From a virus (lineage: Duplodnaviria > Caudoviricetes): 64,000 nucleotides of DNA. The notes below the pieces were generated by a model that searched no databases, was not told where the DNA came from, and worked only from the letters and a program-made list of their open reading frames with translations. Location of the stretch: positions 96,001 through 160,000 of the IMG/VR virus record IMGVR_UViG_3300025389_000010. The stretch is one strand, 5' to 3'. The stretch's first letter is position 1; every line of letters starts with the position of its first letter. Made by a program: the position numbers and the translations under genes. Below, in pieces: positions 16,642-61,704 of the stretch.

Positions 16642-17661
16642 ATGGATATTAATAACTTAACAGATTGTATAAGAACACAAGGGAAATTCACGGAAACCTT
16701 TTTACCAACGGGTTCTGCTAAATTTTTAGATAGAAATTTTAGCATTCTTCCTTATCTTTGTGAGCTATTAAAAAATGCAAATGACAGTACGATTGATCCT
16801 CTTCTAGTAAAACCTGAACCGTTTGATGTTACACCATATACAGACGTAAGCGGTTTAACTGCTATTGGCGATCCTCGTTTTTCGTTAGGATCTGTGTTAT
16901 CAGCAACATACGTTAACTTCTTACCTAGAATGATTGCACAAACAGAATTAAAGCAATCTGGTGGAACACAAGTTATTGATAACTATATATGTGATTCAGA
17001 TGGTGTTCCTATAAAAGAATCAGAAACAATTCCTATCTTGTTGTCTTTGGATTTAACTGGTCAAAAACCATATAACTATGGTGCTGTATACATTCCACCA
17101 CTTAGTGCAGGTACTACATTAGATCAATTATTGGAGCCTATACAACCTCAAGAAATTGAATTTTTTGTATTGAATAATATAAAAATTGCAATTGAAAGTA
17201 CTGCTGAAAATTTTGTAAATTTCATAGGTTTGTATTTTCCAGATTGGACAGCTTCTTTGTATGAATATACAACACCACCGGTTTTCATGGTGCAATTAAA
17301 TCGTGTAGATCCTGCAACTGCAAATCCAGAAACTGTATTTTTAAAATTTCATCTTGATAGCATTAAACCTGTTGCAAATTTATTAAATTTAAAAACAATT
17401 ACATATTGTCAAGGTGCTCCTCAGTCACAAGGTCCAGCACAAACAAAAGCTATTGCAGACATACCTTTGGATTACAATGATGCAATGTCATCAGGTCAAG
17501 CTGGTAAAGCAACTTACGATTACATCATGGCTAATTATCATTTAACGACACAAAACTCTTATGCAACATTGTTTGCATCACCACAATCAATGCAAACTTA
17601 TTTTGATACGATTAATAATACAAATGCATCTACTGTGATTTGTGCAGTATCAAGCCTTTAA
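16642..17661 (+). CDS. hypothetical protein, possibly virion-associated
   Basis: 339 aa, T/A/P-rich and low in Lys like the neighbouring structural genes; converges on the spike gene. Confidence 0.6.
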   Translation: MDINNLTDCIRTQGKFTETFLPTGSAKFLDRNFSILPYLCELLKNANDSTIDPLLVKPEPFDVTPYTDVSGLTAIGDPRFSLGSVLSATYVNFLPRMIAQTELKQSGGTQVIDNYICDSDGVPIKESETIPILLSLDLTGQKPYNYGAVYIPPLSAGTTLDQLLEPIQPQEIEFFVLNNIKIAIESTAENFVNFIGLYFPDWTASLYEYTTPPVFMVQLNRVDPATANPETVFLKFHLDSIKPVANLLNLKTITYCQGAPQSQGPAQTKAIADIPLDYNDAMSSGQAGKATYDYIMANYHLTTQNSYATLFASPQSMQTYFDTINNTNASTVICAVSSL

Positions 17662-19730
17662 TTACAATTTAGCATTGTAAAGTCTGGTGGAGGATTTAAA
17701 TTACCATCAGGTGTAAAATTAGCAGTAACTGGTACATAATTTCCATTGAATGCATCAAGCCCCTGAATACCATATGCTGCGTTTCTTTGCAAAATAGCAT
17801 TGTTTACTCTATCACTTTTTCCGTTACCAAAAGAACCGCCACCTCCACCACAGGCACTTATACATTTTGGTCCCGGTGCTGTTCCTACGCCATTTGTTTC
17901 TGCTGGAATAGGAATTTTACTTGGTGATGGTGCAGCACTTCTCATATCAAATTCAGTATTATAATATGTTGCTTTTGGAATAAGCTGACTATGCTGGTGA
18001 GTATCAACAGTTGAATAGTGTGTATGTGGATGCATAAAAACAGCAGCGACTGCTGTAGGATCAACCATTCCTATAACGGTACCAGTTGGTCCAATAACTT
18101 TAATGGGTGTATAATTTACATTTGAAAGCATCCATGCAAAACCAACGGTTTGACCTTCGTTTGCTACAGGTATTGCCATCATTACCGTACCGTATGTTTC
18201 TTCTACTTTTTTAGTTATGGCAGCAAGTCCTAAATCTGCAAAAAATCCGGTTACTGCCCAAGCAAGATCTCGTCCTACTACTTTTAAAGCGTTATCTATT
18301 TTATCTAAAATGTTTGCACTTTTCTTTAATAAGTTACTGTGCACAGGCATTCCAGCATGCATGTTTTCATTACCACATGGCGTAACTTGTATTCTTTCAC
18401 CGGGAATATGTAAATGAGGAACATATAAAGAACTACCTACGTGACCTCTTCCTTTAAAAACAATATCGCCTTCTATGCTCAATTGACCTTGAACATAGGT
18501 ATTTCCATCAATATGACAACCTTCATCTCCGCTTCTGTTTTTAGCATCTATATAAACATTGCCACCGGCGATTGTTGTTTTATTTTTTGATGATATTGTA
18601 AGCTCACCCGTATCAGCAGTCATGTCTATTTTAGTACCGGCAACCGAAACAATACCATTACTTTTTATATCAACACCGGGCGTACCTGTTGAAAGCGTAA
18701 ATTGTTCATTTACGTTTAAATGCAAACTACCAACACCAACTTCTGGTGGTATATATGCCATATTTTCAACACTTCCTTTTGTGTTTGGAAAATGACCTTG
18801 TGATTTAGCAGCCTGTGCATCTTGTAAAGTTGTTGGTATTAGTTTATGACCTACCATTGCATGATCATCTTGCTTATTTTGTGCACCGGGTATACCGACT
18901 TGAATCATCGTGTCACCATGATGATAGATAACTGATTGACCTTTTTCAGATAATATCTTTTGATTTTTTTCAATTTCATCTTTATGTTCATTATATGCAG
19001 CAATACCTGCTTGTGTTCCTGCATTTATAGCATGTTGTGGATCAACAATTTTTCCATTTTTACAACCCGGACTACCACATCCTTTACCACCGTTTAAAGA
19101 AAGCAAACTTGATATTCCTAAAAAAGGAGCAATAACATATTGTATTATTTTCTGAATAACATCCCAAGGTATAGGTAAACGTGGAAAATATTTTTGAAGA
19201 GTCAGCATTGCTTTCTTTGCTTTTTCATAAGCTTTTTGATCCAAGTGTTTTGTTTTACATATGGGACAAGGAATCATTGCTTGTTCACTTTTTGCGGCTT
19301 CTTCTGTTTTATCTATTTTGGCTTGTTGTATTTTTTTTGAAAGTTCTGCAATTTTTGCAGCTGCTGCTTTTTGTTCTGGTGATGGATTACCATATTGAAC
19401 CGAATGATCACCATTATGTAAAATATGATGATCGCCACCATAAACAAATTGAGAATCACCTCTTACGTTTATGGTAAAAGCTCTTTGTACGTTTATACAA
19501 AAATCACCAACTGATTTCCATATTGCACGACCCGGCATGAAAGACCAAAAACTACCATCTTTAAATTTTGCACTAATATGTGAATTATCGCTTTTTACAG
19601 ATGAACCAAATTCATCATCTTTTATATCCGTTGCAGAAACAAAACCACCCGCTTGAGAAGCTAAAATACTTTTATCTTTTACTTGTTGACTTGTAACGAT
19701 ATCTGGTTCGTGTACTGAATTTGTTGCCAT
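17658..19730 (-). CDS. baseplate central spike beta-helix protein (gp5-C/gpV-like) with no OB-fold
   Basis: Repeated short V/I-x-G-D/N strands (INVRGDSQFVYGGDHHILHNGDH; ISIEGDIVFKG); HPHTH...THQH near the C-terminus. Confidence 0.65.
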   Translation of the reverse strand: MATNSVHEPDIVTSQQVKDKSILASQAGGFVSATDIKDDEFGSSVKSDNSHISAKFKDGSFWSFMPGRAIWKSVGDFCINVQRAFTINVRGDSQFVYGGDHHILHNGDHSVQYGNPSPEQKAAAAKIAELSKKIQQAKIDKTEEAAKSEQAMIPCPICKTKHLDQKAYEKAKKAMLTLQKYFPRLPIPWDVIQKIIQYVIAPFLGISSLLSLNGGKGCGSPGCKNGKIVDPQHAINAGTQAGIAAYNEHKDEIEKNQKILSEKGQSVIYHHGDTMIQVGIPGAQNKQDDHAMVGHKLIPTTLQDAQAAKSQGHFPNTKGSVENMAYIPPEVGVGSLHLNVNEQFTLSTGTPGVDIKSNGIVSVAGTKIDMTADTGELTISSKNKTTIAGGNVYIDAKNRSGDEGCHIDGNTYVQGQLSIEGDIVFKGRGHVGSSLYVPHLHIPGERIQVTPCGNENMHAGMPVHSNLLKKSANILDKIDNALKVVGRDLAWAVTGFFADLGLAAITKKVEETYGTVMMAIPVANEGQTVGFAWMLSNVNYTPIKVIGPTGTVIGMVDPTAVAAVFMHPHTHYSTVDTHQHSQLIPKATYYNTEFDMRSAAPSPSKIPIPAETNGVGTAPGPKCISACGGGGGSFGNGKSDRVNNAILQRNAAYGIQGLDAFNGNYVPVTANFTPDGNLNPPPDFTMLNCN

Positions 19731-19742
19731 ATTTAATATTTA

Positions 19743-20819
19743 TTATTTAACATTAGTTATGCAATCGTTTATATTGCAAAGACATACTGGAAAATTTGGA
19801 TTACCATTATGAAAAAACACAATTACTTTTGAATTTACCATAGGCGTAGATATAGCACCTATTGGTGCACCGGGTCTGCTTCCAATATCAGCAGGACCAT
19901 TATGGTTTACTAGTTCTGTTGGTCTTATAACCTTTTGATCTTTTGATGCTTGTGTTGTGTCTGGACCAGCACCTGAAATTGGCACTTGATTAACTCTATT
20001 TAAAACTTCATCAGATCTTTGTCCACTAATTCCAAAATTATTAGAATTCGGTATACCGCCTTCTTCGCTAAATAATTGAGCATTACTATCACCTACAAAA
20101 ATTGCATCTTTATATTGAGAAGCAATATTATTAACTGTTTTAACATTTAAATGGACACCGTCTCCCGTATATTGATTAGAATCAGGAATACTAATAACAT
20201 CAGCTATTCCACTTGCAGCCGAAACAACAGCATCTGTTGTTGCACCATATTTATTTGGATTTGGTGGTATAACATAAACCTGATATCCTTTTGCTTTTAA
20301 ATCATTAATTAATTTTATTGTATTTTGTTTTGTTACATCTGGTGAAAATTTTGCATCATAATCATTTGTACCAATTGCAAGTATTGCTTTTTTTCCATTT
20401 GGATTTGTGTTTACTGCTGTTGAACCATCAAATTTACCATCCGGATTATTTGCTCCATTATTTTTTGGAGAATCTACAGGTGATTTTTTCTCCGCAGCTG
20501 ATTGGTTTTTATTTTCGGGATTAGCTGTACTATCCGATGGAGATGGTGCTGGTTTTCCTACAGTTTCATTTTGAGGAGCAGATGTTGAACCACCCCAAAA
20601 AGAAACAGCAATTTCAGCCCAAGGCAAAAGAGATTTGAGTCTTTCTAATACGGCAGGTTTAAATGAAGCAGATGTAATTTTAATATCAACTGCATCTTTA
20701 TTCCAATCTTCATATAAAGTAGTTGAAATATTTGGTACAAAAACTTGTACTCTTCCTCTTTTTTCAGGATCAGCTGTATTAATTATAATACCGGGATAAA
20801 AACCATGATACTGTATCAT
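19743..20819 (-). CDS. gp5 N-terminal OB-fold protein with inserted SGNH-like hydrolase
   Basis: GIIINTADPEKRGRVQVFVP...LPWA and P...SKVIVFFHNGNPNFPV flank GTND, DGVH, VGDS and GISG motifs. Confidence 0.75.
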   Translation of the reverse strand: MIQYHGFYPGIIINTADPEKRGRVQVFVPNISTTLYEDWNKDAVDIKITSASFKPAVLERLKSLLPWAEIAVSFWGGSTSAPQNETVGKPAPSPSDSTANPENKNQSAAEKKSPVDSPKNNGANNPDGKFDGSTAVNTNPNGKKAILAIGTNDYDAKFSPDVTKQNTIKLINDLKAKGYQVYVIPPNPNKYGATTDAVVSAASGIADVISIPDSNQYTGDGVHLNVKTVNNIASQYKDAIFVGDSNAQLFSEEGGIPNSNNFGISGQRSDEVLNRVNQVPISGAGPDTTQASKDQKVIRPTELVNHNGPADIGSRPGAPIGAISTPMVNSKVIVFFHNGNPNFPVCLCNINDCITNVK

Positions 20820-20820
20820 A

Positions 20821-22029
20821 TTACAATACTGATGTTACTGCATCAGAAACAGAAGCAAAGCAAATTGGAAAATTAGGATTCTCGTTTAAAAAGAACACCC
20901 ATACTTTTGAATTTACCATAGGTGTAGAAACAGCACCCATTGGTGCACCCGCTCTTCCACCAACATCAACAGGACCGTTTGCGTTTACAAGATCAGTTGG
21001 TCTTATAACTCTTTGATCTTTTGAACCTTCTCCTGTTTGGCTTGCATATGCTGGGTTTTTTGTTTTGTTTAAAAATTTTTGATAATTACCTTCAGCAAAT
21101 GCAATATTTGCCTGATTTTGTTCAGGCGATACTCCAATATAATTGTTATAATCTTCTATCGATGCAAAACTTTTTCTGACAGGATATTGATCTGCTGGTA
21201 ATAATGTTATTTGTACGGCATCATTTGTGCTCATCAAAGTTCCAGTGGAACTACTTCCTGTTGCTTGATATCCGCCTAATCCCAACATATTACCAGCTGC
21301 TAATGACATTTCTGCATAATTTGATCTAAATGTAGTAGTGTGTGGATCTTCAGTATATGAATCAGCTATTACTGCTGTTATAGTTTTTTTTGTATTGGGA
21401 TTATAAACAGAAACAGTTCTTCCGACTAAGCCACCCGGTCCAGCTATAAAAACGTCAGTTTCACCATTAAAAGGTCTACCTCCGACATTTATAGATGTTA
21501 CGGTATTACCAGCCCAACCTTCAAGTTGATTTGATCTATTTGAACCGTTTAAATCATAAGCAATATTTTTACCGCTGCTATTAACAACAGTTTGAGTCAC
21601 ATTAGCAGGTGCCCCTTGAGGTTGTTTTGTTGTACCATCAAATTTACCATCTGGATTATTTGCTCCATTATTTTCAGGGTATTGGGTTGGTGCTTTTTGA
21701 GGCGTAGCTGACTGATTTTTATTTTCAGGATTAGCTGTACTGTCCGATGGAGATGGTGCTGGTTTTCCGGTTGTTTCGTTTTGTGGTGCAGATGTTGAAC
21801 CGCCCCAAAATGCACTTGTGACTTCTGCCCAAGGCAAAAGAGATTTGAGTCTTTCTAATACAGCAGGTTTAAATGAAGCAGATGTAATTTTAATATCAAC
21901 TGCATCTTTATTCCAATCTTCATATAAAGTAGTTGATATATTTGGAACAAAAACCTGAACTCTGCCTCGCTTTTCAGGATCAACTGTATTTATAACGATA
22001 CCTAAATGTACACCCGGTACGTTTTTCAT
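20821..22029 (-). CDS. gp5 N-terminal OB-fold protein with inserted RlpA-like double-psi barrel
   Basis: Same OB-fold halves as the neighbour; insert GRTVSVYNPNTKKTITAVIADS...EMSLAAGNMLGL...VQITLL. Confidence 0.7.
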   Translation of the reverse strand: MKNVPGVHLGIVINTVDPEKRGRVQVFVPNISTTLYEDWNKDAVDIKITSASFKPAVLERLKSLLPWAEVTSAFWGGSTSAPQNETTGKPAPSPSDSTANPENKNQSATPQKAPTQYPENNGANNPDGKFDGTTKQPQGAPANVTQTVVNSSGKNIAYDLNGSNRSNQLEGWAGNTVTSINVGGRPFNGETDVFIAGPGGLVGRTVSVYNPNTKKTITAVIADSYTEDPHTTTFRSNYAEMSLAAGNMLGLGGYQATGSSSTGTLMSTNDAVQITLLPADQYPVRKSFASIEDYNNYIGVSPEQNQANIAFAEGNYQKFLNKTKNPAYASQTGEGSKDQRVIRPTDLVNANGPVDVGGRAGAPMGAVSTPMVNSKVWVFFLNENPNFPICFASVSDAVTSVL

Positions 22030-22030
22030 T

Positions 22031-23746
22031 TTATAAATATTTCTTTAAGGTGTTACCGACTTTATCTAATCCGGTATTTATATCAACACCAACACCAGAA
22101 ACACCTGCACCTAAAGTACTAAATGCATTCCCAAGATCTTTAAAGTCTTGAGATAAAATTTGTCCAAGATCGCCGGGATTTATAGGATTACCAAAAGCAT
22201 CTGTTCTTCCACCATTGTAAAGATTTGGTCCCATAGAAGCTGCAACTGGTGGGAAAAGCTGGGCACCTTGTCCATATCTATTATAGATTGCACCAGCTTT
22301 TGCAAGATAATTACCAATAGGATTAAATGCTGCATATTGTGGTCCCATTTTATTAGTAAGAGCACCCACAATATTACCTTGTAATGCTGTAGCAACATAT
22401 GAATATCCATAATTTGCAAGTTGATCTGACAAGAACCCACCGGGATCGGTTCCTATTTGATTAAATTGGTTTATTACATTTTGTACTTGTGGTGGGAAAA
22501 ACGCAGAAACCGTTGAAAAGGGATTACTGACAAAACTAGAAGTTGTATTCATGAAGTTTTGAATCGTATTCAAATAATTCAAAAAAGGACCGGACATATT
22601 AAACAATGAAGTAAAGAAATTCACATCGTCTAATATGGTTTGGAAAGTATCTAACAATAAACATAATAAATCTAATGGGATAATTTGATCTATCAATTGC
22701 ATCAGTGCTTTTTGTATTTGAGCAATAGCTCCATTTATTATCGCATAAACTTTTTGTATATAATATATCATACCATTATAGATATCATTAACAATTGTTT
22801 GGAAAGTTTCTATAACTTTGTTTATACCTGCAACAAGTCTTCCTAAAGAACCAAAAGATCCTTTTGGCATTGTCAACCAAGCATGGGTTCTAATTTTGTT
22901 ACAAAAATCTTCAAGTTCTGCAACAGAACCTTTATGAATTTTTTCCATTAAGTCTGTAACAAGACTTGGATGAGTTGTTTTTGAACCAGTTGCTGGGTTG
23001 TTTGCTTGTCTATCTGAATTAATTTCATTCACACCTTGTAAACCTGTCGAAGTAAAACAACCTTTTTTACCAGCTGGAGTCTTTTTCAAAATGGAATCTT
23101 TTAAATATGGATCATTTGCCATTTGGTAAAAATCATTAATAAAAGGTTTGTCTATGACATAAGAACAATGATAATTGCTCCAAGATGACATGATCTTATT
23201 ATCAAAACCATATACTAACATATTTAAAAATAAATAATATTTGTTAATGTTATTTTGACAATAATGAAATTTCACCATACCCAATTCTGAATGCGGCATA
23301 CCTTGAACTATTCCCAATAAAGTATTATTAGACAAACCTGTTGCTTTTTCTAATTGTTCTAATTCTTTTTTGTTAAAAGTATGAGCATCACTATTATTTG
23401 AATTAACAGCAGCTACGTTTTCTGGTGTAGGATTGGCTGCTGCTTTTTTTGCAGCGGCAGCATTTGCTTCATTAGGATTTTGCTTATCAGAATTTGGATC
23501 ATAACTCGCACCAACTGGTGGTGCTTTATACAAATAACTTTGATCATCTTCAGTTTGATTGGCTTTAGCTGCTTGCATTTCAAGCATATCCAATTCTTCC
23601 TGTGTTGGAGTAGCTGCATATGAATCTTTAGGAAAAGATTCCACTGGTTGTTGAAGACCTGCTGTACTGGCGGCAGCTTTCAACCCAACCGCATTTGGAT
23701 CTGGATTATCGGGAAATATACTTGGGATATTATCTTCGGTTGCCAT
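22031..23746 (-). CDS. hypothetical structural protein (baseplate region)
   Basis: 571 aa within the spike/hub module; helical middle and G/N-rich C-terminus. Confidence 0.6.
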   Translation of the reverse strand: MATEDNIPSIFPDNPDPNAVGLKAAASTAGLQQPVESFPKDSYAATPTQEELDMLEMQAAKANQTEDDQSYLYKAPPVGASYDPNSDKQNPNEANAAAAKKAAANPTPENVAAVNSNNSDAHTFNKKELEQLEKATGLSNNTLLGIVQGMPHSELGMVKFHYCQNNINKYYLFLNMLVYGFDNKIMSSWSNYHCSYVIDKPFINDFYQMANDPYLKDSILKKTPAGKKGCFTSTGLQGVNEINSDRQANNPATGSKTTHPSLVTDLMEKIHKGSVAELEDFCNKIRTHAWLTMPKGSFGSLGRLVAGINKVIETFQTIVNDIYNGMIYYIQKVYAIINGAIAQIQKALMQLIDQIIPLDLLCLLLDTFQTILDDVNFFTSLFNMSGPFLNYLNTIQNFMNTTSSFVSNPFSTVSAFFPPQVQNVINQFNQIGTDPGGFLSDQLANYGYSYVATALQGNIVGALTNKMGPQYAAFNPIGNYLAKAGAIYNRYGQGAQLFPPVAASMGPNLYNGGRTDAFGNPINPGDLGQILSQDFKDLGNAFSTLGAGVSGVGVDINTGLDKVGNTLKKYL

Positions 23747-58648: not shown

Positions 58649-58722
58649 TGGTGGAGAATAAGGGAATTCAACCCTTGACCCCGCAGTGCAAATGCGGTAT
58701 TTTAGCACTAAACTAATTCCCC
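58649..58722 (-). tRNA. trnA: tRNA-Ala(UGC)
   Basis: CCGCA-TTTGCAC-TGCGG; G3:U70 alanine identity pair; encoded CCA. Confidence 0.9.
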
Positions 58723-59339
58723 TTTTTCTGCATTACATCATCAAAAATTTCATCGTATTTGCTTTGCTTATTTATTTTCTTTATGGCCTTTTCAAGTTCT
58801 TTCTGTATGAAATAAAGCTCTGGATCATCAAAATGTTCGTCAGCCTGAAACTTTATACCGATACCACCAGCTTTTTCCCAAGCTTCTATGTTAGACTTTT
58901 TATCATCTATTAGAACGTTTATTGTTCCATCTTTCTCAACTGCCGGTGCATCTTTCCATTTATCTTGTGAAAAACATATTCTTTCCGGTTGCGGGGAAAG
59001 ATTATTATGAATCCATAACATTTTACCTAACATTGATTGTCTCTTAAAGAACACATTTCTTTTTGTATCTTCTGGTTCAGTTTCATCGACAAGAGGAGCA
59101 GAACAAATATAAAAACAGTCAGCAACATCCAAAACTCTTTTTAAAAGAACGGTGTTCGATTTGAACACAGGAAGCTTTGCAAAATAATCATCAATGTTCG
59201 GAAGAGACTCCATCAAATTGAATATATCATCATGTGTGAGTTCTTTGTAATGTTTTTTACCACAAAGCTTTGCTGTTTCCCCAAAGAAATCAGCTAATAC
59301 GCCATCCATATCTAAAAATATTTTACTTTTTGTTTTCAT
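58713..59339 (-). CDS. HAD-family 5'(3')-deoxyribonucleotidase
   Basis: IFLDMDGVLADF, CSAP, K..W, VLIDD...N...W..AGG.GI. Confidence 0.85.
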   Translation of the reverse strand: MKTKSKIFLDMDGVLADFFGETAKLCGKKHYKELTHDDIFNLMESLPNIDDYFAKLPVFKSNTVLLKRVLDVADCFYICSAPLVDETEPEDTKRNVFFKRQSMLGKMLWIHNNLSPQPERICFSQDKWKDAPAVEKDGTINVLIDDKKSNIEAWEKAGGIGIKFQADEHFDDPELYFIQKELEKAIKKINKQSKYDEIFDDVMQKKGN

Positions 59340-59547
59340 CACACAATATTACCGTAAATTTATATAAAAACAAGCCGTGACATTTTCTATTTATTAATTC
59401 TTTTTTAGAACTTACAACTAATTTTTTTTCAATTCTTGCTATATCTTTTGTTTTTTCTTTTAAAATTTCGTCAGCCTGTTCTGGTGAATTGTAATAACCA
59501 GACCATTTTATGATATTCCTGTCTATTTTAGGGGCTTCCATATACAA
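59323..59547 (-). CDS. hypothetical protein
   Basis: 74 aa ORF behind TAAGTA. Confidence 0.5.
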   Translation of the reverse strand: MYMEAPKIDRNIIKWSGYYNSPEQADEILKEKTKDIARIEKKLVVSSKKELINRKCHGLFLYKFTVILCDENKK

Positions 59548-59570
59548 TACTTATATATTAAAAAACCCAA

Positions 59571-59641
59571 CTACCCCGCATGGACTCGAACCATGAATAA
59601 CAGTGCCAAAAACTGTGGTGTTACCATTACACTACAGGGTA
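59571..59641 (-). tRNA. trnQ: tRNA-Gln(UUG), CCA not encoded
   Basis: U1-A72 acceptor TACCCTG/CGGGGTA; ACAGT-TTTTGGC-ACTGT; TTCGAGT T-loop. Confidence 0.9.
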
Positions 59642-59647
59642 ATATGA

Positions 59648-59932
59648 TTACTCGTCTTCTATAGACAGTTTAATTTTTTCAGTATGATCTTCCCTTATTT
59701 TAATCATTTTCTTAAATAAAGAAAGAGTTTTCTTTTCAAATTCAATCTGCTCATTTTCTGGAACACGATCAACCATTGCTTCTACCATTGCAGTTAGAAA
59801 ACCAGCAGCAATCTTTGGTGTCAATTCCATTTCAAAAAATGAACGCATTGGTAAAACAGCAGGGCAATAATTTTCTGCATCGTATTCAAGTACGCCAGCT
59901 TTTAAAATTGTTGTGAATTTATCAGGGTCCAT
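59648..59932 (-). CDS. hypothetical protein
   Basis: 94 aa ORF in a tightly packed string. Confidence 0.55.
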   Translation of the reverse strand: MDPDKFTTILKAGVLEYDAENYCPAVLPMRSFFEMELTPKIAAGFLTAMVEAMVDRVPENEQIEFEKKTLSLFKKMIKIREDHTEKIKLSIEDE

Positions 59933-59933
59933 T

Positions 59934-60299
59934 TTATTTTTGTTTTGATTCTATGCAATTTTTTAATATTTCAATACAGTCATTTATTGAAATATTTTTA
60001 TTATATTCCATGCTTCTACCAATGTATTTATACCAATTAACTTTAAAATCCAATGGTTTGTAATGAAAATTGGGAGCAGGATCTTCTACTCTACACCATG
60101 CACAATCTTCGCTATCACACCAGCAAAACCGATGAATCATAAATATATCATTTTCAAAATCAGTACCATATTTTTCCGCCCATTCTTCTTCAGATGCAAA
60201 ATGATCGGAGATGGCACGAATAATGGATTCGACCAGATAATCCTTTTGTGGACCAAACATACCGGATGGTGTTATGATATTAATGCTTGTTCCAGACAT
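59934..60299 (-). CDS. hypothetical protein
   Basis: FCWCDSEDC.WC, PNFHYKP..F.V.WYKYIGRSM. Confidence 0.6.
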   Translation of the reverse strand: MSGTSINIITPSGMFGPQKDYLVESIIRAISDHFASEEEWAEKYGTDFENDIFMIHRFCWCDSEDCAWCRVEDPAPNFHYKPLDFKVNWYKYIGRSMEYNKNISINDCIEILKNCIESKQK

Positions 60300-60510
60300 A
60301 GATTACCAAGATAATGATAAAAAATAGGTTTGTAAAGAAAAATCCTAACTGAACTAAAAAACCAAGAGAAGAAAGTTTCTTATAAAGATCTTCGATCATC
60401 TTATGATCTTTATCCAAACAATCCATAATTTTCTCATCAATCTTGTGTTGAGTGCTGATGTATTCAACCAGACCTTCTATTTGAGAAGCTTTAATTTTAT
60501 TATTCGCCAT
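60280..60510 (-). CDS. small membrane protein
   Basis: C-terminal TM helix. Confidence 0.5.
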   Translation of the reverse strand: MANNKIKASQIEGLVEYISTQHKIDEKIMDCLDKDHKMIEDLYKKLSSLGFLVQLGFFFTNLFFIIILVIYVWNKH

Positions 60511-60814
60511 AATGTTTTTTTAAGAAAAAGTATCTCTCTTCAATGCTAGGTGGTGTATCATAGAAATCATACATATCATCACAAAGCTCTTCCCATTCGT
60601 TACATTCCACAACCAATCTATTGTATCTTTCATTACATAGTTCTGGTTGATGCAAATCATTTTTAAGAGCAATATTTTCAAGATGAAGCTCTTCTAATCT
60701 CTGAGCAGCTTCTGCTATTGCAGAATTTGCAACGCCATCTTCTGATTGAATATCAACCGAAAGGATTTTAAGTGCTTCGATCAATGTTTCTGTTAAGGTT
60801 TTTGGAACTTCCAT
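60500..60814 (-). CDS. hypothetical protein
   Basis: 104 aa ORF with a coiled coil. Confidence 0.55.
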   Translation of the reverse strand: MEVPKTLTETLIEALKILSVDIQSEDGVANSAIAEAAQRLEELHLENIALKNDLHQPELCNERYNRLVVECNEWEELCDDMYDFYDTPPSIEERYFFLKKHYGE

Positions 60815-61029
60815 ATTTGTTCTTTTGCTTGTTCAAGTGTAATATTTTTAGGATTATTGTCAATGTCCTTTTTTGATTTATGGTCTTTATCAAACTTATC
60901 TAAAAGTTCTTTAGATAACTTTACACGAAAGGGACCATGATTACTATATTCATACTTTTCATTATTCTGGTCTGTCGAGCCATGCTGGTTCTCTTCTGAT
61001 GTGTTTGCTTTTTGCTTTTGATTTTTCAT
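60793..61029 (-). CDS. hypothetical protein
   Basis: 78 aa ORF overlapping both neighbours. Confidence 0.4.
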   Translation of the reverse strand: MKNQKQKANTSEENQHGSTDQNNEKYEYSNHGPFRVKLSKELLDKFDKDHKSKKDIDNNPKNITLEQAKEQIWKFQKP

Positions 61030-61189
61030 TGTTAATTCTTTTTATTTCTAATAACATTTCCTTTGCTCTAGTCTTTGAGATTCTTATCTCATTGTTCCCA
61101 ACTCTGTCCGCAATAGGAATAAGGGTTTTGAGAATACCCTCTAAGTCTGAAACTATATTATCGTATGTCATGGTTGATATATTAAACAC
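60962..61189 (-). CDS. hypothetical protein
   Basis: 75 aa ORF; the true start may be MTYDN. Confidence 0.45.
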   Translation of the reverse strand: MFNISTMTYDNIVSDLEGILKTLIPIADRVGNNEIRISKTRAKEMLLEIKRINNEKSKAKSKHIRREPAWLDRPE

Positions 61190-61199
61190 TTTTGTTTTT

Positions 61200-61430
61200 T
61201 ATGCAAGAAAATTGTGCGAGCTTTATTTTTATCTCTTTGGCCTTTCCTCGCTCATGCCCTTCAGATGGGTGCGACCACAACATATTTTTGGATGGCGGGG
61301 CGCAACTCCCACATATGTTGTTCCTGTACAGCCTTGCAAGGACTGCCCCGGAATTTCCAGAAGCATTGTACAGATCGGGCATTCACCGATACCAACTTGT
61401 CTGCATTTTGACAAGCAGATACATCCTTAA
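61200..61430 (-). ncRNA. candidate structured ncRNA of unknown family
   Basis: About 51% GC over 61241-61420 by hand count; nested 5-9 bp stems; own sigma70-type promoter; boundaries approximate. Confidence 0.6.
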
Positions 61431-61433
61431 TAT

Positions 61434-61462
61434 AATTTAACACCGATACGTTCTTGTGTCAA
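61434..61462 (-). promoter_or_regulatory. sigma70-type promoter for the candidate ncRNA
   Basis: Minus strand TTGACA-N17-TAAATT with an extended TG. Confidence 0.65.
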
Positions 61463-61470
61463 ATAAAAAA

Positions 61471-61546
61471 TGGCACGTTAGGAGGGACTCGAACCCACAA
61501 CCAACAGTTTTGGAGACTGCGACTCTACCAATTGAGCTACTAACGT
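61471..61546 (-). tRNA. trnW: tRNA-Trp(CCA)
   Basis: GCAGT-CTCCAAA-ACTGT; canonical D/T loops; encoded CCA. Confidence 0.93.
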
Positions 61547-61547
61547 G

Positions 61548-61622
61548 TGGCTGAAGTGGTAGGACTCGAACCTACAACCAATCCCTTAACAGGGGATCGC
61601 TCGACCATTGAGCTACACTTCA
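61548..61622 (-). tRNA. trnN: tRNA-Asn(GUU)
   Basis: ATCCC-CTGTTAA-GGGAT; encoded CCA; 1 nt from tRNA-Trp. Confidence 0.93.
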
Positions 61623-61628
61623 ATAAAT

Positions 61629-61704
61629 TGGTCGTGATGGAGAGACTCGAACTCTCGATTCCTTGCTCCCAAAGCAAGTGCCATAGCCGCTAGGCGACAT
61701 CACG
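61629..61704 (-). tRNA. trnP: tRNA-Pro(UGG)
   Basis: CTTGC-TTTGGGA-GCAAG; C1-G72; encoded CCA; TATAAATA immediately upstream. Confidence 0.93.

What the first reader, a model, noticed from the sequence alone, without database searches (positions are those of the whole stretch)
19980..20393. Circularly permuted SGNH/GDSL hydrolase inside a spike protein
Seen: all four SGNH blocks are present, in the order III (IGTND, aa 149-153), V (DGVH, aa 220-223), I (FVGDS, aa 241-245), II (GISGQRS, aa 263-269). Known: the canonical order is I-II-III-V, with catalytic Ser in GDS and Asp/His in DxxH. Inference: this is a permuted, catalytically intact esterase whose new termini suit insertion into the OB loop. 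It could de-O-acetylate capsule, LPS or peptidoglycan. I know of no described permuted SGNH enzyme in a tail spike, but could not search.
Basis: partly seen in the sequence, partly recalled or inferred. Interest (0 to 1): 0.8.

Follow-up and report, generated by a model that had tools for sequence, protein, structure and literature searches.

The report
Permuted SGNH esterase in phage baseplate
A baseplate protein of an uncultured T4-like phage has an SGNH-type esterase spliced into its OB-fold with the two sequence halves swapped, and the same swapped domain recurs in many cell-wall-attacking proteins of uncultured phages, so phages may strip protective acetyl groups from the bacterial wall during injection.

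Summary
ORF 19743-20819 (-), 358 aa, has GTND (150-153), DGVH (220-223), GDS (243-245) and GISGQRS (263-269), in block order III-V-I-II.

This is a true circular permutation, not chance:
- Pfam Lipase_GDSL_2 matches only the block III half.
- A profile of 67 relatives hits canonical SGNH structures in swapped order. The best is the S. pneumoniae OatA SGNH domain.
- Swapping the halves aligns all four blocks in register with the TesA family. The hhalign score peaks when the ring is opened just before block I.
- AlphaFold2 gives a confident domain (pLDDT 90) with secondary-structure elements in the permuted order.

I could not measure the triad geometry because no model coordinates were available. 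Activity is untested.

The permutation is not special to this protein. It defines a family of about 65 clusters (at 50% identity), mostly internal domains of large phage proteins. About 30% of these also carry peptidoglycan hydrolase or binding modules. Here the domain sits on long linkers inside a split Phage_base_V OB-fold. Relatives of that scaffold carry lysozyme or glucosaminidase at the same site.

Most likely function: a virion-borne de-O-acetylase of the cell wall, probably of peptidoglycan. This is a new variant of a known kind. Permuted SGNH-like enzymes with a different cut (AlgX, AlgJ, PatB1) and tail-borne SGNH esterases are already known.

The parts
19743..20819 (-). Whole gene (358 aa, P0001): a split OB-fold baseplate protein carrying the permuted SGNH domain. 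Its ATG lies one base after the stop codon of the upstream paralog.
20703..20798 (-). N-terminal half of the OB-fold (aa 8-39), matching PF04717 Phage_base_V positions 1-32 of 75.
20394..20567 (-). Linker 1 (aa 85-142), rich in Pro, Ser and Asn and low in complexity. Predicted disordered (pLDDT 31-44).
19980..20393 (-). Circularly permuted SGNH domain (aa 143-280). Element order is b3-[III]-a3-b4-a4-b5-[V]-a5-b1-[I]-a1-b2-[II]-a2. pLDDT is 93-98.
20361..20372 (-). Block III, GTND (aa 150-153). N152 is the oxyanion-hole Asn, conserved in 66/67.
20151..20162 (-). Block V, DGVH (aa 220-223). D220 (58/67) and H223 (63/67) are the acid and base of the triad.
20085..20093 (-). Block I, GDS (aa 243-245). 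S245 is the nucleophile (61/67). G243 and D244 are invariant.
20013..20033 (-). Block II, GISGQRS (aa 263-269). G266 is the oxyanion-hole Gly (58/67). It aligns with G44 of mature TesA.
19872..19979 (-). Linker 2 (aa 281-316). Low-confidence, probably flexible.
19776..19871 (-). C-terminal half of the OB-fold (aa 317-348), matching PF04717 positions 41-72 of 75.
20821..22029 (-). Upstream paralog (402 aa, P0002). It has the same OB halves (85% identity over aa 6-134, and a matching C-terminal ~65 aa) but a different insert, possibly a DPBB/RlpA-like fold.

Best explanation
The gene encodes a structural baseplate (central hub or tip) protein of a contractile-tailed phage. A loop of its gp5/VgrG-type OB-fold has been opened, and a complete SGNH esterase domain is suspended in it on two long flexible linkers. 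The esterase belongs to a phage-wide family in which the SGNH fold is circularly permuted between blocks II and III, giving the order N-H-S-G.

Proposed mechanism:
1. When the tail contracts, the tip crosses the outer layers and brings the tethered domain to the cell wall.
2. Ser245, activated by His223 and Asp220, attacks an O-acetyl ester. The oxyanion hole is formed by the Ser245 and Gly266 backbone NH groups and the Asn152 side chain.
3. The most likely ester is the 6-O-acetyl group on MurNAc of peptidoglycan.
4. Removing the acetate unblocks glycan strands for the glycan-cleaving cargo carried by the paralogous OB protein next door, and by related scaffolds. O-acetylation blocks both lysozymes and lytic transglycosylases.

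Shown: the permuted SGNH homology, the intact catalytic residues, the insertion into the OB-fold, the family-wide conservation, and the co-occurrence with peptidoglycan hydrolase modules.

Inferred: presence in the virion, catalytic activity, the peptidoglycan substrate, and synergy with the paralog.
For: Permuted SGNH homology:
- Pfam PF13472 matches only the block III half.
- The A2 profile against PDB gives SGNH chains as best hits (OatA 5UG1/5UFY at E 2.3e-4, a lysophospholipase L1-like esterase, TesA). Two stretches match in swapped order.
- The half-swapped profile against TesA rises from 7.9 to 14.6 bits.
- hhalign of the swapped alignment gives 132 columns at 93.3% probability with all blocks in register. 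The cut-point scan peaks at residue ~235.

Fold: AF2 gives pLDDT 90.1 and pTM 0.84, with five beta/alpha units in the permuted order.

Catalytic residues are conserved across 67 sequences. All four members lacking His also lack Ser.

OB insertion.

Cell-wall context:
- Of 64 full-length relatives, 11 have Peptidase_M23, 5 Phage_lysozyme2, and 1 each SLT, Amidase_2, PG_binding_1 and LysM. No capsule or O-antigen depolymerase domains were found (PHROG endolysin and tail-lysin hits).
- The same split-OB scaffold carries Phage_lysozyme (P0217) or Glucosaminidase plus DUF2272 (P0218).
- The tandem pair of an SGNH-OB gene and another-cargo OB gene, placed after the tape-measure-like gene, is conserved on a related contig.
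- The best solved-structure match, OatA, handles the same MurNAc 6-O-acetyl group (PMC5697884).
- Lytic transglycosylases need a free C6-OH, and Ape esterases act ahead of them (PMC1199599).
Against: - The triad geometry was not measured, because model coordinates are not exposed.
- Sequential structure searches found no SGNH chain, only generic Rossmann/HAD-like alpha/beta folds with Z no higher than 7.7.
- The host is unknown, and so is whether its peptidoglycan is O-acetylated.
- There is no specific similarity to Ape1.
- The tail-borne SGNH esterases that I found characterised in the literature act on O-antigen or capsule, not peptidoglycan.
- One ortholog (P0003) has lost the block II Gly (GIKNETS).
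- The paralog's supposed glycan-cleaving (DPBB) fold rests only on weak structural leads, TM 0.40-0.47. It has no sequence support.
- The full-length model is poor outside the SGNH domain.
Confidence: 0.5

Rival explanations
1. Same permuted, active SGNH esterase on the baseplate, but its substrate is an O-acetylated surface polysaccharide (O-antigen, capsule, teichoic acid or S-layer glycan). It would serve receptor processing, as in known tailspike esterases, rather than peptidoglycan de-O-acetylation.
For: Characterised phage SGNH esterases deacetylate O-antigen or capsule (papers listed, e.g. PMC6989608, PMC9569702). Long flexible tethers could also reach outer layers. The substrate is not constrained by anything in the sequence.
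Against: The domain sits on the central OB hub protein, not on a fibre or tailspike. Relatives co-occur only with peptidoglycan-directed modules and with no depolymerase-type domains. The same scaffold elsewhere carries lysozyme or glucosaminidase.
Confidence: 0.25
2. The domain is a lipase or (lyso)phospholipase that attacks outer-membrane or cytoplasmic-membrane lipids to help the tail tip pass through.
For: TesA/lysophospholipase L1-type enzymes are among the nearest canonical relatives. PHROG 6102 'lipase' is a weak hit.
Against: SGNH sequence similarity does not predict substrate. The context is consistently peptidoglycan hydrolases. The best PDB hit is a carbohydrate-acting SGNH domain, OatA.
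Confidence: 0.1
3. The domain is not a hydrolase in vivo. It would be either a glycan-binding pseudo-enzyme or adaptor, or an O-acyltransferase like OatA and AlgX.
For: Several family members have lost Ser and His (P0017, P0028, P0042, P0045). The copies in cultured cyanophages are degenerate (GTDQ, no DxxH, GDK). This shows that the fold is retained without catalysis. The nearest solved relative and all known permuted SGNH-like proteins are transferases (PMC5697884, PMC9487903).
Against: This protein keeps every catalytic residue, including Asn152, in canonical form. A virion protein acting outside the cytoplasm has no obvious acetyl donor.
Confidence: 0.07
4. The domain is an unrelated Rossmann/HAD-like alpha/beta domain, and the four SGNH-like motifs are convergent or coincidental.
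For: The top structural matches are HAD phosphatases and other Rossmann-like folds (4ap9 at Z 7.7). Two family members weakly hit PNK3P.
Against: 29 of 67 members hit Lipase_GDSL_2. The profile hits SGNH chains in PDB. The half-swapped alignment matches TesA end to end with every catalytic residue in register, and the cut-point scan peaks exactly at the canonical N-terminus. No HAD DxDxT motif is present. A flavodoxin-like 2-1-3-4-5 sheet cut between b2 and b3 is expected to read as 3-2-1-4-5, which would explain the Rossmann-like hits (inference).
Confidence: 0.03

Closest known systems
Canonical SGNH/GDSL hydrolases (Pfam PF13472 Lipase_GDSL_2; E. coli TesA/TAP)
   Same: All four blocks with the canonical residues are present: GDS Ser, block II Gly, GxND Asn, DxxH. 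The alternating alpha/beta units are the same. After swapping the halves, the alignment runs end to end.
   Different: The sequence order is III-V-I-II instead of I-II-III-V. The domain is small (about 140 aa). It sits inside another domain.
C-terminal SGNH domain of peptidoglycan O-acetyltransferase OatA (PDB 5UFY/5UG1)
   Same: It is the best solved-structure sequence match (E 2.3e-4), with blocks I and III matched in swapped order. It acts on the MurNAc 6-O-acetyl position (PMC5697884).
   Different: OatA has the canonical order, is a transferase fused to an AT3 membrane domain, and lacks the block III Asn. The similarity is remote.
AlgX/AlgJ, PatB1 (DHHW family) and WssI: circularly permuted SGNH-like acetyltransferases
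   Same: They are SGNH-derived folds with a circular permutation that keeps the triad together in space (PMC9487903, PMC4148444).
   Different: Their order is H-S-G-N, a different cut point. Their motifs are divergent (GTSYS or KDS, DxH or DHHW, Tyr in place of Asn). They have cap domains and extra strands. They are bacterial biosynthetic transferases. Here the order is N-H-S-G with fully canonical motifs, in a phage structural protein.
Ape1, O-acetylpeptidoglycan esterase (SGNH)
   Same: It is the proposed functional analogue: an SGNH esterase that removes MurNAc 6-O-acetyl so that lytic transglycosylases can act (PMC1199599).
   Different: No specific sequence similarity was detected. Ape1 has the canonical order and is a bacterial periplasmic housekeeping enzyme.
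T4 gp5 and related hub/spike proteins (OB-fold plus lysozyme)
   Same: An OB-fold baseplate protein that carries a cell-wall enzyme to the periplasm. Relatives of this scaffold carry Phage_lysozyme or Glucosaminidase.
   Different: Here the enzyme is inserted within the OB-fold (between PF04717 positions 32 and 41) rather than following it. There is no beta-helix in the same chain. The cargo is an esterase. Two paralogs with different cargo sit in tandem.
Tail-borne canonical SGNH esterases (phi11 Gp44 Tal; O-antigen or capsule deacetylating tailspikes)
   Same: An SGNH esterase carried on the phage adsorption or penetration apparatus (PMC4876445).
   Different: Those domains are reported as SGNH/GDSL without mention of a permutation, and they are C-terminal or appended. 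The characterised ones act on O-antigen or capsule.

Membership tests
SGNH hydrolase superfamily | Block I GDS(x) with the nucleophilic Ser | tested here: met
   GDS at 243-245. G and D are 67/67 and S is 61/67 in the family. It aligns with the GDS of TesA.
SGNH hydrolase superfamily | Block II Gly (oxyanion hole) | tested here: met
   G266 in GISGQRS, 58/67. It aligns with the ISGDTS Gly of TesA.
SGNH hydrolase superfamily | Block III GxND with Asn | tested here: met
   GTND at 150-153. N152 is 66/67. Pfam PF13472 positions 64-121 match here.
SGNH hydrolase superfamily | Block V DxxH (acid and base of the triad) | tested here: met
   DGVH at 220-223. D is 58/67 and H is 63/67. It aligns with DGIH of TesA.
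SGNH hydrolase superfamily | Linear order of blocks I-II-III-V | tested here: not met
   The order is III-V-I-II in this protein and in all aligned relatives. The hhalign score is maximal only after re-opening the ring at residue ~235.
SGNH hydrolase superfamily | Three-layer alpha/beta/alpha fold with a five-stranded parallel sheet that superposes on solved SGNH enzymes | tested here: inconclusive
   AF2 gives five strand-helix units at pLDDT 90. Sequential aligners (Foldseek, VIA-align) listed only generic Rossmann/HAD-like folds and no SGNH chain. Partial matches to SGNH-annotated viral models cover the III-V half: 89 residues at 2.1 A and 99 columns at 2.8 A. No permutation-aware aligner was available.
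SGNH hydrolase superfamily | Ser-His-Asp within hydrogen-bonding distance in 3D | not testable with these tools
   Model coordinates are not exposed to scripts.
SGNH hydrolase superfamily | Pfam gathering threshold for PF13472 | tested here: inconclusive
   33.9 bits on the isolated domain against a cut-off of 32.9. 31 bits on the whole protein. Only the III half can be matched by a linear HMM.
SGNH hydrolase superfamily | Esterase or acyl-transfer activity | not testable with these tools
   Needs a biochemical assay.
AlgX / DHHW-type permuted SGNH-like proteins | Order H-S-G-N, divergent blocks (DxH or DHHW; Tyr or other residue in place of the block III Asn), cap domain | tested here: not met
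   The order here is N-H-S-G, with canonical DxxH and GxND. The definitions come from PMC9487903 and PMC4148444.
Phage_base_V OB domain (gp5 / VgrG / P2 gpV type, PF04717) | Match to the OB-fold profile above the gathering score | tested here: met
   33 bits against a cut-off of 23.8. The match is in two stretches: aa 8-39 to positions 1-32 and aa 317-348 to positions 41-72.
Phage_base_V OB domain (gp5 / VgrG / P2 gpV type, PF04717) | Contiguous OB-fold followed by a beta-helical spike in the same chain | tested here: not met
   The OB-fold is split by about 277 aa, and the protein ends 10 residues after the OB-fold. The fold of the OB halves is poorly modelled, pLDDT 43-67.
Ape1-type O-acetylpeptidoglycan esterase | Specific sequence or structure similarity to Ape1, and activity on O-acetyl-MurNAc | tested here: inconclusive
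   Ape1 was not among the PDB chains listed for the family profile at E up to 10. Activity is not testable here.

The most novel reading that the evidence does not exclude
This is a previously undescribed topological class of the SGNH fold, cut between blocks II and III to give the order N-H-S-G. The cut would turn the flavodoxin-like strand order into a Rossmann-like one. The class is widespread in virion-associated lysins of uncultured phages. In this reading it acts as a phage-delivered peptidoglycan de-O-acetylase that licenses the glycan-cleaving enzyme of a tandem paralog. It would be a virion-borne counter to peptidoglycan O-acetylation, which I did not find described in the literature I searched.
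Probability: 0.4. Interest if true: 0.72.

Novelty: new variant of a known kind. Interest (0 to 1): 0.6.

Why it matters
Peptidoglycan O-acetylation protects many bacteria from lysozymes and controls their own lytic transglycosylases. A phage enzyme that removes the acetyl group during penetration would be a new step in infection. It would also be a candidate helper enzyme for lysin-based antibacterials.

Structurally, the family is a natural, motif-perfect circular permutant of a textbook fold. Linear HMMs (Pfam) see only half of it, and sequential structure searches mistake it for Rossmann/HAD-like domains. It is therefore under-annotated in phage genomes: 35 of 64 relatives had no SGNH-type Pfam hit at E 0.01 even on the isolated domain.

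The split-OB scaffold with exchangeable cargo (esterase, lysozyme, glucosaminidase and others) also shows a modular way of arming the tail tip.

Tried and rejected
- Foldseek against PDB and AFDB clusters, VIA-align wide, and VIA-align re-ranking of the domain model listed only generic alpha/beta/alpha folds: HAD phosphatases, GT-B, dehydrogenases. Z was no higher than 7.7 and Foldseek E no lower than 1.9e-3. No SGNH chain was listed. I read this as a limit of sequential aligners on a permutant, not as evidence against SGNH.
- Single-sequence phmmer of the domain against PDB found nothing meaningful.
- The isolated block I-II fragment (65 aa) gave no Pfam GDSL hit.
- tblastn of P0001 against 50,697 deposited phage genomes found no match. 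A relative's domain (P0012) also found none.
- The TesA homolog search returned only close enterobacterial orthologs (78-98% identity). The canonical profile used for hhalign is therefore narrow.
- The full-length AF2 model did not resolve the OB halves (pLDDT 43-67), so it shows neither the insertion geometry nor the distance between the domain's termini.
- PDB sequence searches with the paralog inserts (P0002, P0214) and with the downstream 690-aa protein gave nothing useful.
- No tandem-duplicated intermediate of the domain was found among relatives.
- P0007 (2030 aa, 11 short repeated stretches) was left out of the alignments as a probable repeat-driven false positive.
Full report
**What is there.**
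The finding lies in ORF 19743..20819 on the minus strand (358 aa, P0001). Coordinates 19980-20393 correspond to aa 143-280. The window is part of a 225,756-bp IMG/VR virus record (window = bases 96001-160000). It has about 30% GC and T4-type replication and morphogenesis genes: DNA polymerase, UvsX, DnaB-type helicase, large terminase and tail sheath. The tail sheath is at most 36% identical to any deposited phage, the nearest being T4-like cyanophages. It is therefore an uncultured, distant T4-like myovirus. The host is unknown.

**The observation.**
All four SGNH blocks are present exactly as reported. Block III is IGTND at 149-153, block V is DGVH at 220-223, block I is FVGDS at 241-245, and block II is GISGQRS at 263-269. 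The order is III-V-I-II.

**Is it a real circular permutation?**
Several independent lines say yes.
- Pfam Lipase_GDSL_2 matches only aa 143-197, to profile positions 64-121 of 178. This is the block III region. E is 5.8e-8 and the score 33.9 bits on the isolated domain, against a cut-off of 32.9. A linear HMM cannot pick up the rest.
- An exhaustive phmmer search of 1.84 billion representatives found 67 proteins. Excluding one repeat-driven hit and one fragment, they all align with the same order: GTND, then DxxH, then GDSNA, then G. The catalytic set is strongly conserved: G150 67/67, N152 66/67, D220 58/67, H223 63/67, G243 and D244 67/67, S245 61/67, G266 58/67.
- All four members that lack the His also lack the Ser. 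This comes from at least two separate lineages, as expected if the residues work together.
- The family profile searched against PDB sequences lists SGNH enzymes as its best hits. First is the S. pneumoniae OatA C-terminal domain (5UG1/5UFY, E 2.3e-4; identity confirmed in PMC5697884). A lysophospholipase L1-like esterase, TesA and PAF acetylhydrolases follow. HMMER reports two stretches in swapped order: profile 106-140 on the chain's N-terminal GDS region, and profile 13-77 on its block III region.
- I ran the 'swapped halves' test in a script. With columns 104-152 placed before columns 10-103, hmmsearch against E. coli TesA rises from 7.9 to 14.6 bits and becomes one stretch spanning GDS to DxxH.
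- hhalign against a TesA-family alignment rises from 94 columns (80.7% probability, P = 1.3e-5) to 132 columns (93.3% probability, P = 2.7e-7). All four blocks are in register: GDS with GDS, ISGQRS with ISGDTS, GTND with GGND, DGVH with DGIH.
- A scan over 18 ring-opening points shows the score peaking at 47.1, with 138 columns covering TesA 31-194. The peak is where the ring is opened at residue ~235, just before block I. The minimum is 25.9 for cuts inside the III-V half. A reversed-column control scores 12.0.

**Structure.**
AlphaFold2 with the 67-sequence alignment gives a confident domain (mean pLDDT 90.1, pTM 0.84). The order of elements is strand 15-19, GTND, helix 31-47, strand 51-55, helix 63-73, strand 78-79, DxxH, helix 97-106, strand 111-114, GDS, helix 116-123, strand 132-134, Gly, helix 140-149. 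That is the canonical b3-a3-b4-a4-b5-a5 followed by b1-a1-b2-a2.

Foldseek (PDB, AFDB clusters) and VIA-align returned only generic Rossmann/HAD-like alpha/beta folds (best 4ap9, Z 7.7) and no SGNH chain. I attribute this to sequential alignment. A flavodoxin-like 2-1-3-4-5 sheet cut between b2 and b3 renumbers to 3-2-1-4-5, the Rossmann/HAD order. This is an inference, because I could not read strand pairing from the model.

It remains the most direct missing test.

**Where the domain sits.**
PF04717 (Phage_base_V, the OB-fold of gp5, VgrG and P2 gpV) matches in two pieces. Aa 8-39 match profile positions 1-32, and aa 317-348 match positions 41-72. About 277 residues are therefore inserted in one OB loop. 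They comprise a helix, a Pro/Ser/Asn-rich linker (aa 85-142), the SGNH domain (143-280) and a second linker (281-316). In the full-length model the SGNH domain keeps pLDDT 93-98, while the linkers score 31-44 and the OB halves 43-67. The protein ends just after the OB-fold, and there is no beta-helix.

The gene immediately upstream (20821-22029, P0002, 402 aa) is a paralog. It is 85% identical over aa 6-134 and similar over the last ~65 aa, but has an unrelated insert. At DNA level the shared parts are 300 nt at 87% identity and 176 nt at 78%.

**The scaffold takes different cargo.**
A profile search with the two paralogs and their orthologs found further split-OB proteins. One carries Phage_lysozyme (P0217, E 4.9e-15). 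One carries DUF2272 plus Glucosaminidase (P0218). Others carry other inserts (P0213-P0216). A related contig keeps the same gene order: terminase, tail tube, a 563-aa tape-measure-like protein, OB with another cargo (392 aa), OB with SGNH (358 aa), then a 688-aa protein.

**The permuted domain is a phage-wide family.**
In relatives it is internal (51), N-terminal (12) or C-terminal (5) in proteins of 150-1800 aa. The permutation therefore predates, and is independent of, the insertion into the OB loop.

Among 64 full-length relatives, Pfam finds Peptidase_M23 in 11 and Phage_lysozyme2 in 5. SLT, Amidase_2, PG_binding_1 and LysM occur in one each. There are no depolymerase-type domains. PHROGs add endolysin, tail-associated lysin and 'baseplate hub subunit and tail lysozyme' hits. 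ESM-Atlas neighbours of the model are viral clusters, one with the VgrG-associated DUF2345.

No Pfam family covers the whole permuted domain. Only 29 of 67 members reach even a partial Lipase_GDSL_2 hit. Cultured relatives exist only as degenerate copies. An example is Synechococcus phage S-SSM4 CYXG_00219, annotated 'endolysin', which has GTDQ, no DxxH, and GDK in place of GDS.

**How it most likely works.**
I propose a virion-borne de-O-acetylase. The OB protein is part of the central hub or tip of the contractile tail. On contraction the tethered esterase reaches the wall, and Ser245, His223 and Asp220 hydrolyse an O-acetyl ester, with Gly266 and Asn152 forming the oxyanion hole.

The peptidoglycan MurNAc 6-O-acetyl group is the favoured substrate (about 50%) for four reasons:
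- Every recognisable partner domain in relatives, and every recognisable alternative cargo of the scaffold, is peptidoglycan-directed.
- The nearest solved relative, OatA, works on this very position.
- O-acetylation blocks lysozymes.
- O-acetylation also blocks lytic transglycosylases, which need the free C6-OH. Bacterial Ape esterases therefore act ahead of them (PMC1199599).

The rivals are:
- de-O-acetylation of O-antigen, capsule or teichoic acid, as in the known tailspike esterases (about 25%);
- lipolytic action on membranes (about 10%);
- a non-hydrolytic or transferase role (about 7%);
- convergence on a Rossmann-like fold (about 3%).

Catalysis, virion location, substrate and synergy with the paralog are all inferred, not shown.

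**Comparison with what is known.**
Circular permutation of SGNH-like folds is established for AlgX, AlgJ, PatB1 and WssI. Those have the order H-S-G-N, divergent motifs, extra cap elements and transferase chemistry (PMC9487903, PMC4148444). SGNH domains on the phage penetration apparatus are also known: phi11 Gp44 Tal (PMC4876445) and several O-antigen or capsule deacetylating tailspikes. Cell-wall enzymes on OB hub proteins are classic (T4 gp5; my own knowledge).

In the literature I could search, three things appear undescribed:
- the N-H-S-G cut with fully canonical motifs;
- its status as a sizeable phage family;
- its placement inside an OB loop, beside a paralog with different cargo.

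I therefore rate it a new variant of a known kind.

**Earlier notes of this scan.**
First-stage notes on the same genome describe the tandem paralogs, the same permuted SGNH stretch, an RlpA-like reading of the paralog's insert, and direct repeats between the paralogs. These agree with what I found. They are unverified AI notes, and I did not use them as evidence.

Noticed in passing
window 20821-22029 (-): The tandem paralog P0002 has the same split OB-fold but a different ~200-aa insert. By eye the insert resembles an RlpA-type double-psi beta barrel. The Atlas model gives only weak structural matches to RlpA/DPBB and GH75 clusters (TM 0.40-0.47, model pLDDT 0.47). Pfam and PDB sequence searches find nothing.
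   Followed up: partly
P0213-P0218 (relatives found): The split-OB scaffold is modular. P0217 carries Phage_lysozyme, and P0218 carries DUF2272 plus Glucosaminidase. P0214 and P0215 carry a third insert (motifs ESGF and YGYTQYNY), whose nearest Atlas clusters by features are Gp5_OB plus Phage_lysozyme2 or SLT. The scores are 0.81-0.86, so this is a lead only. In the related contig whose gene order I saw, and by matching contig lengths in a second, the SGNH-bearing gene is paired with a second OB gene carrying another cargo.
   Followed up: partly
window 20418-20717 vs 21628-21927, and 19783-19958 vs 20861-21036: There are direct DNA repeats between the two paralogs: 300 nt at 87% identity (spacing 1210) and 176 nt at 78% (spacing 1078). 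They flank unrelated cargo. This is compatible with recent duplication, gene conversion or cargo exchange.
   Followed up: partly
window 17658-19730 (-): A 690-aa protein lies directly downstream of the two OB genes and is conserved in synteny (688 aa on the related contig). It has no Pfam, PHROG or PDB sequence hit. It contains a His-rich stretch (HPHTHY..THQHS) and Gly-rich repeats. It may be the separate needle or spike partner of the OB proteins.
   Followed up: partly
relatives P0017, P0028, P0042, P0045; L003:2128-4557 (Synechococcus phage S-SSM4 CYXG_00219): Some family members have lost Ser and His together (GDDNA or GDNVA, with no His in block V). The only copies in cultured phages (S-SSM4, S-SSM6b, ACG-2014d, within large 'endolysin' or uncharacterised proteins) are degenerate: GTDQ, no DxxH, GDK. 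The fold thus persists as a pseudo-enzyme in some lineages.
   Followed up: partly
window 22031-23746 (-): A 571-aa protein upstream of the paralogs has weak PHROG matches to tape measure proteins (E 3e-4 to 3e-3). This places the OB genes in the tail-tip module.
   Followed up: no
window 58649-61704 (-): A cluster of five tRNA genes: Ala-TGC, Gln-TTG, Trp-CCA, Asn-GTT and Pro-TGG.
   Followed up: no
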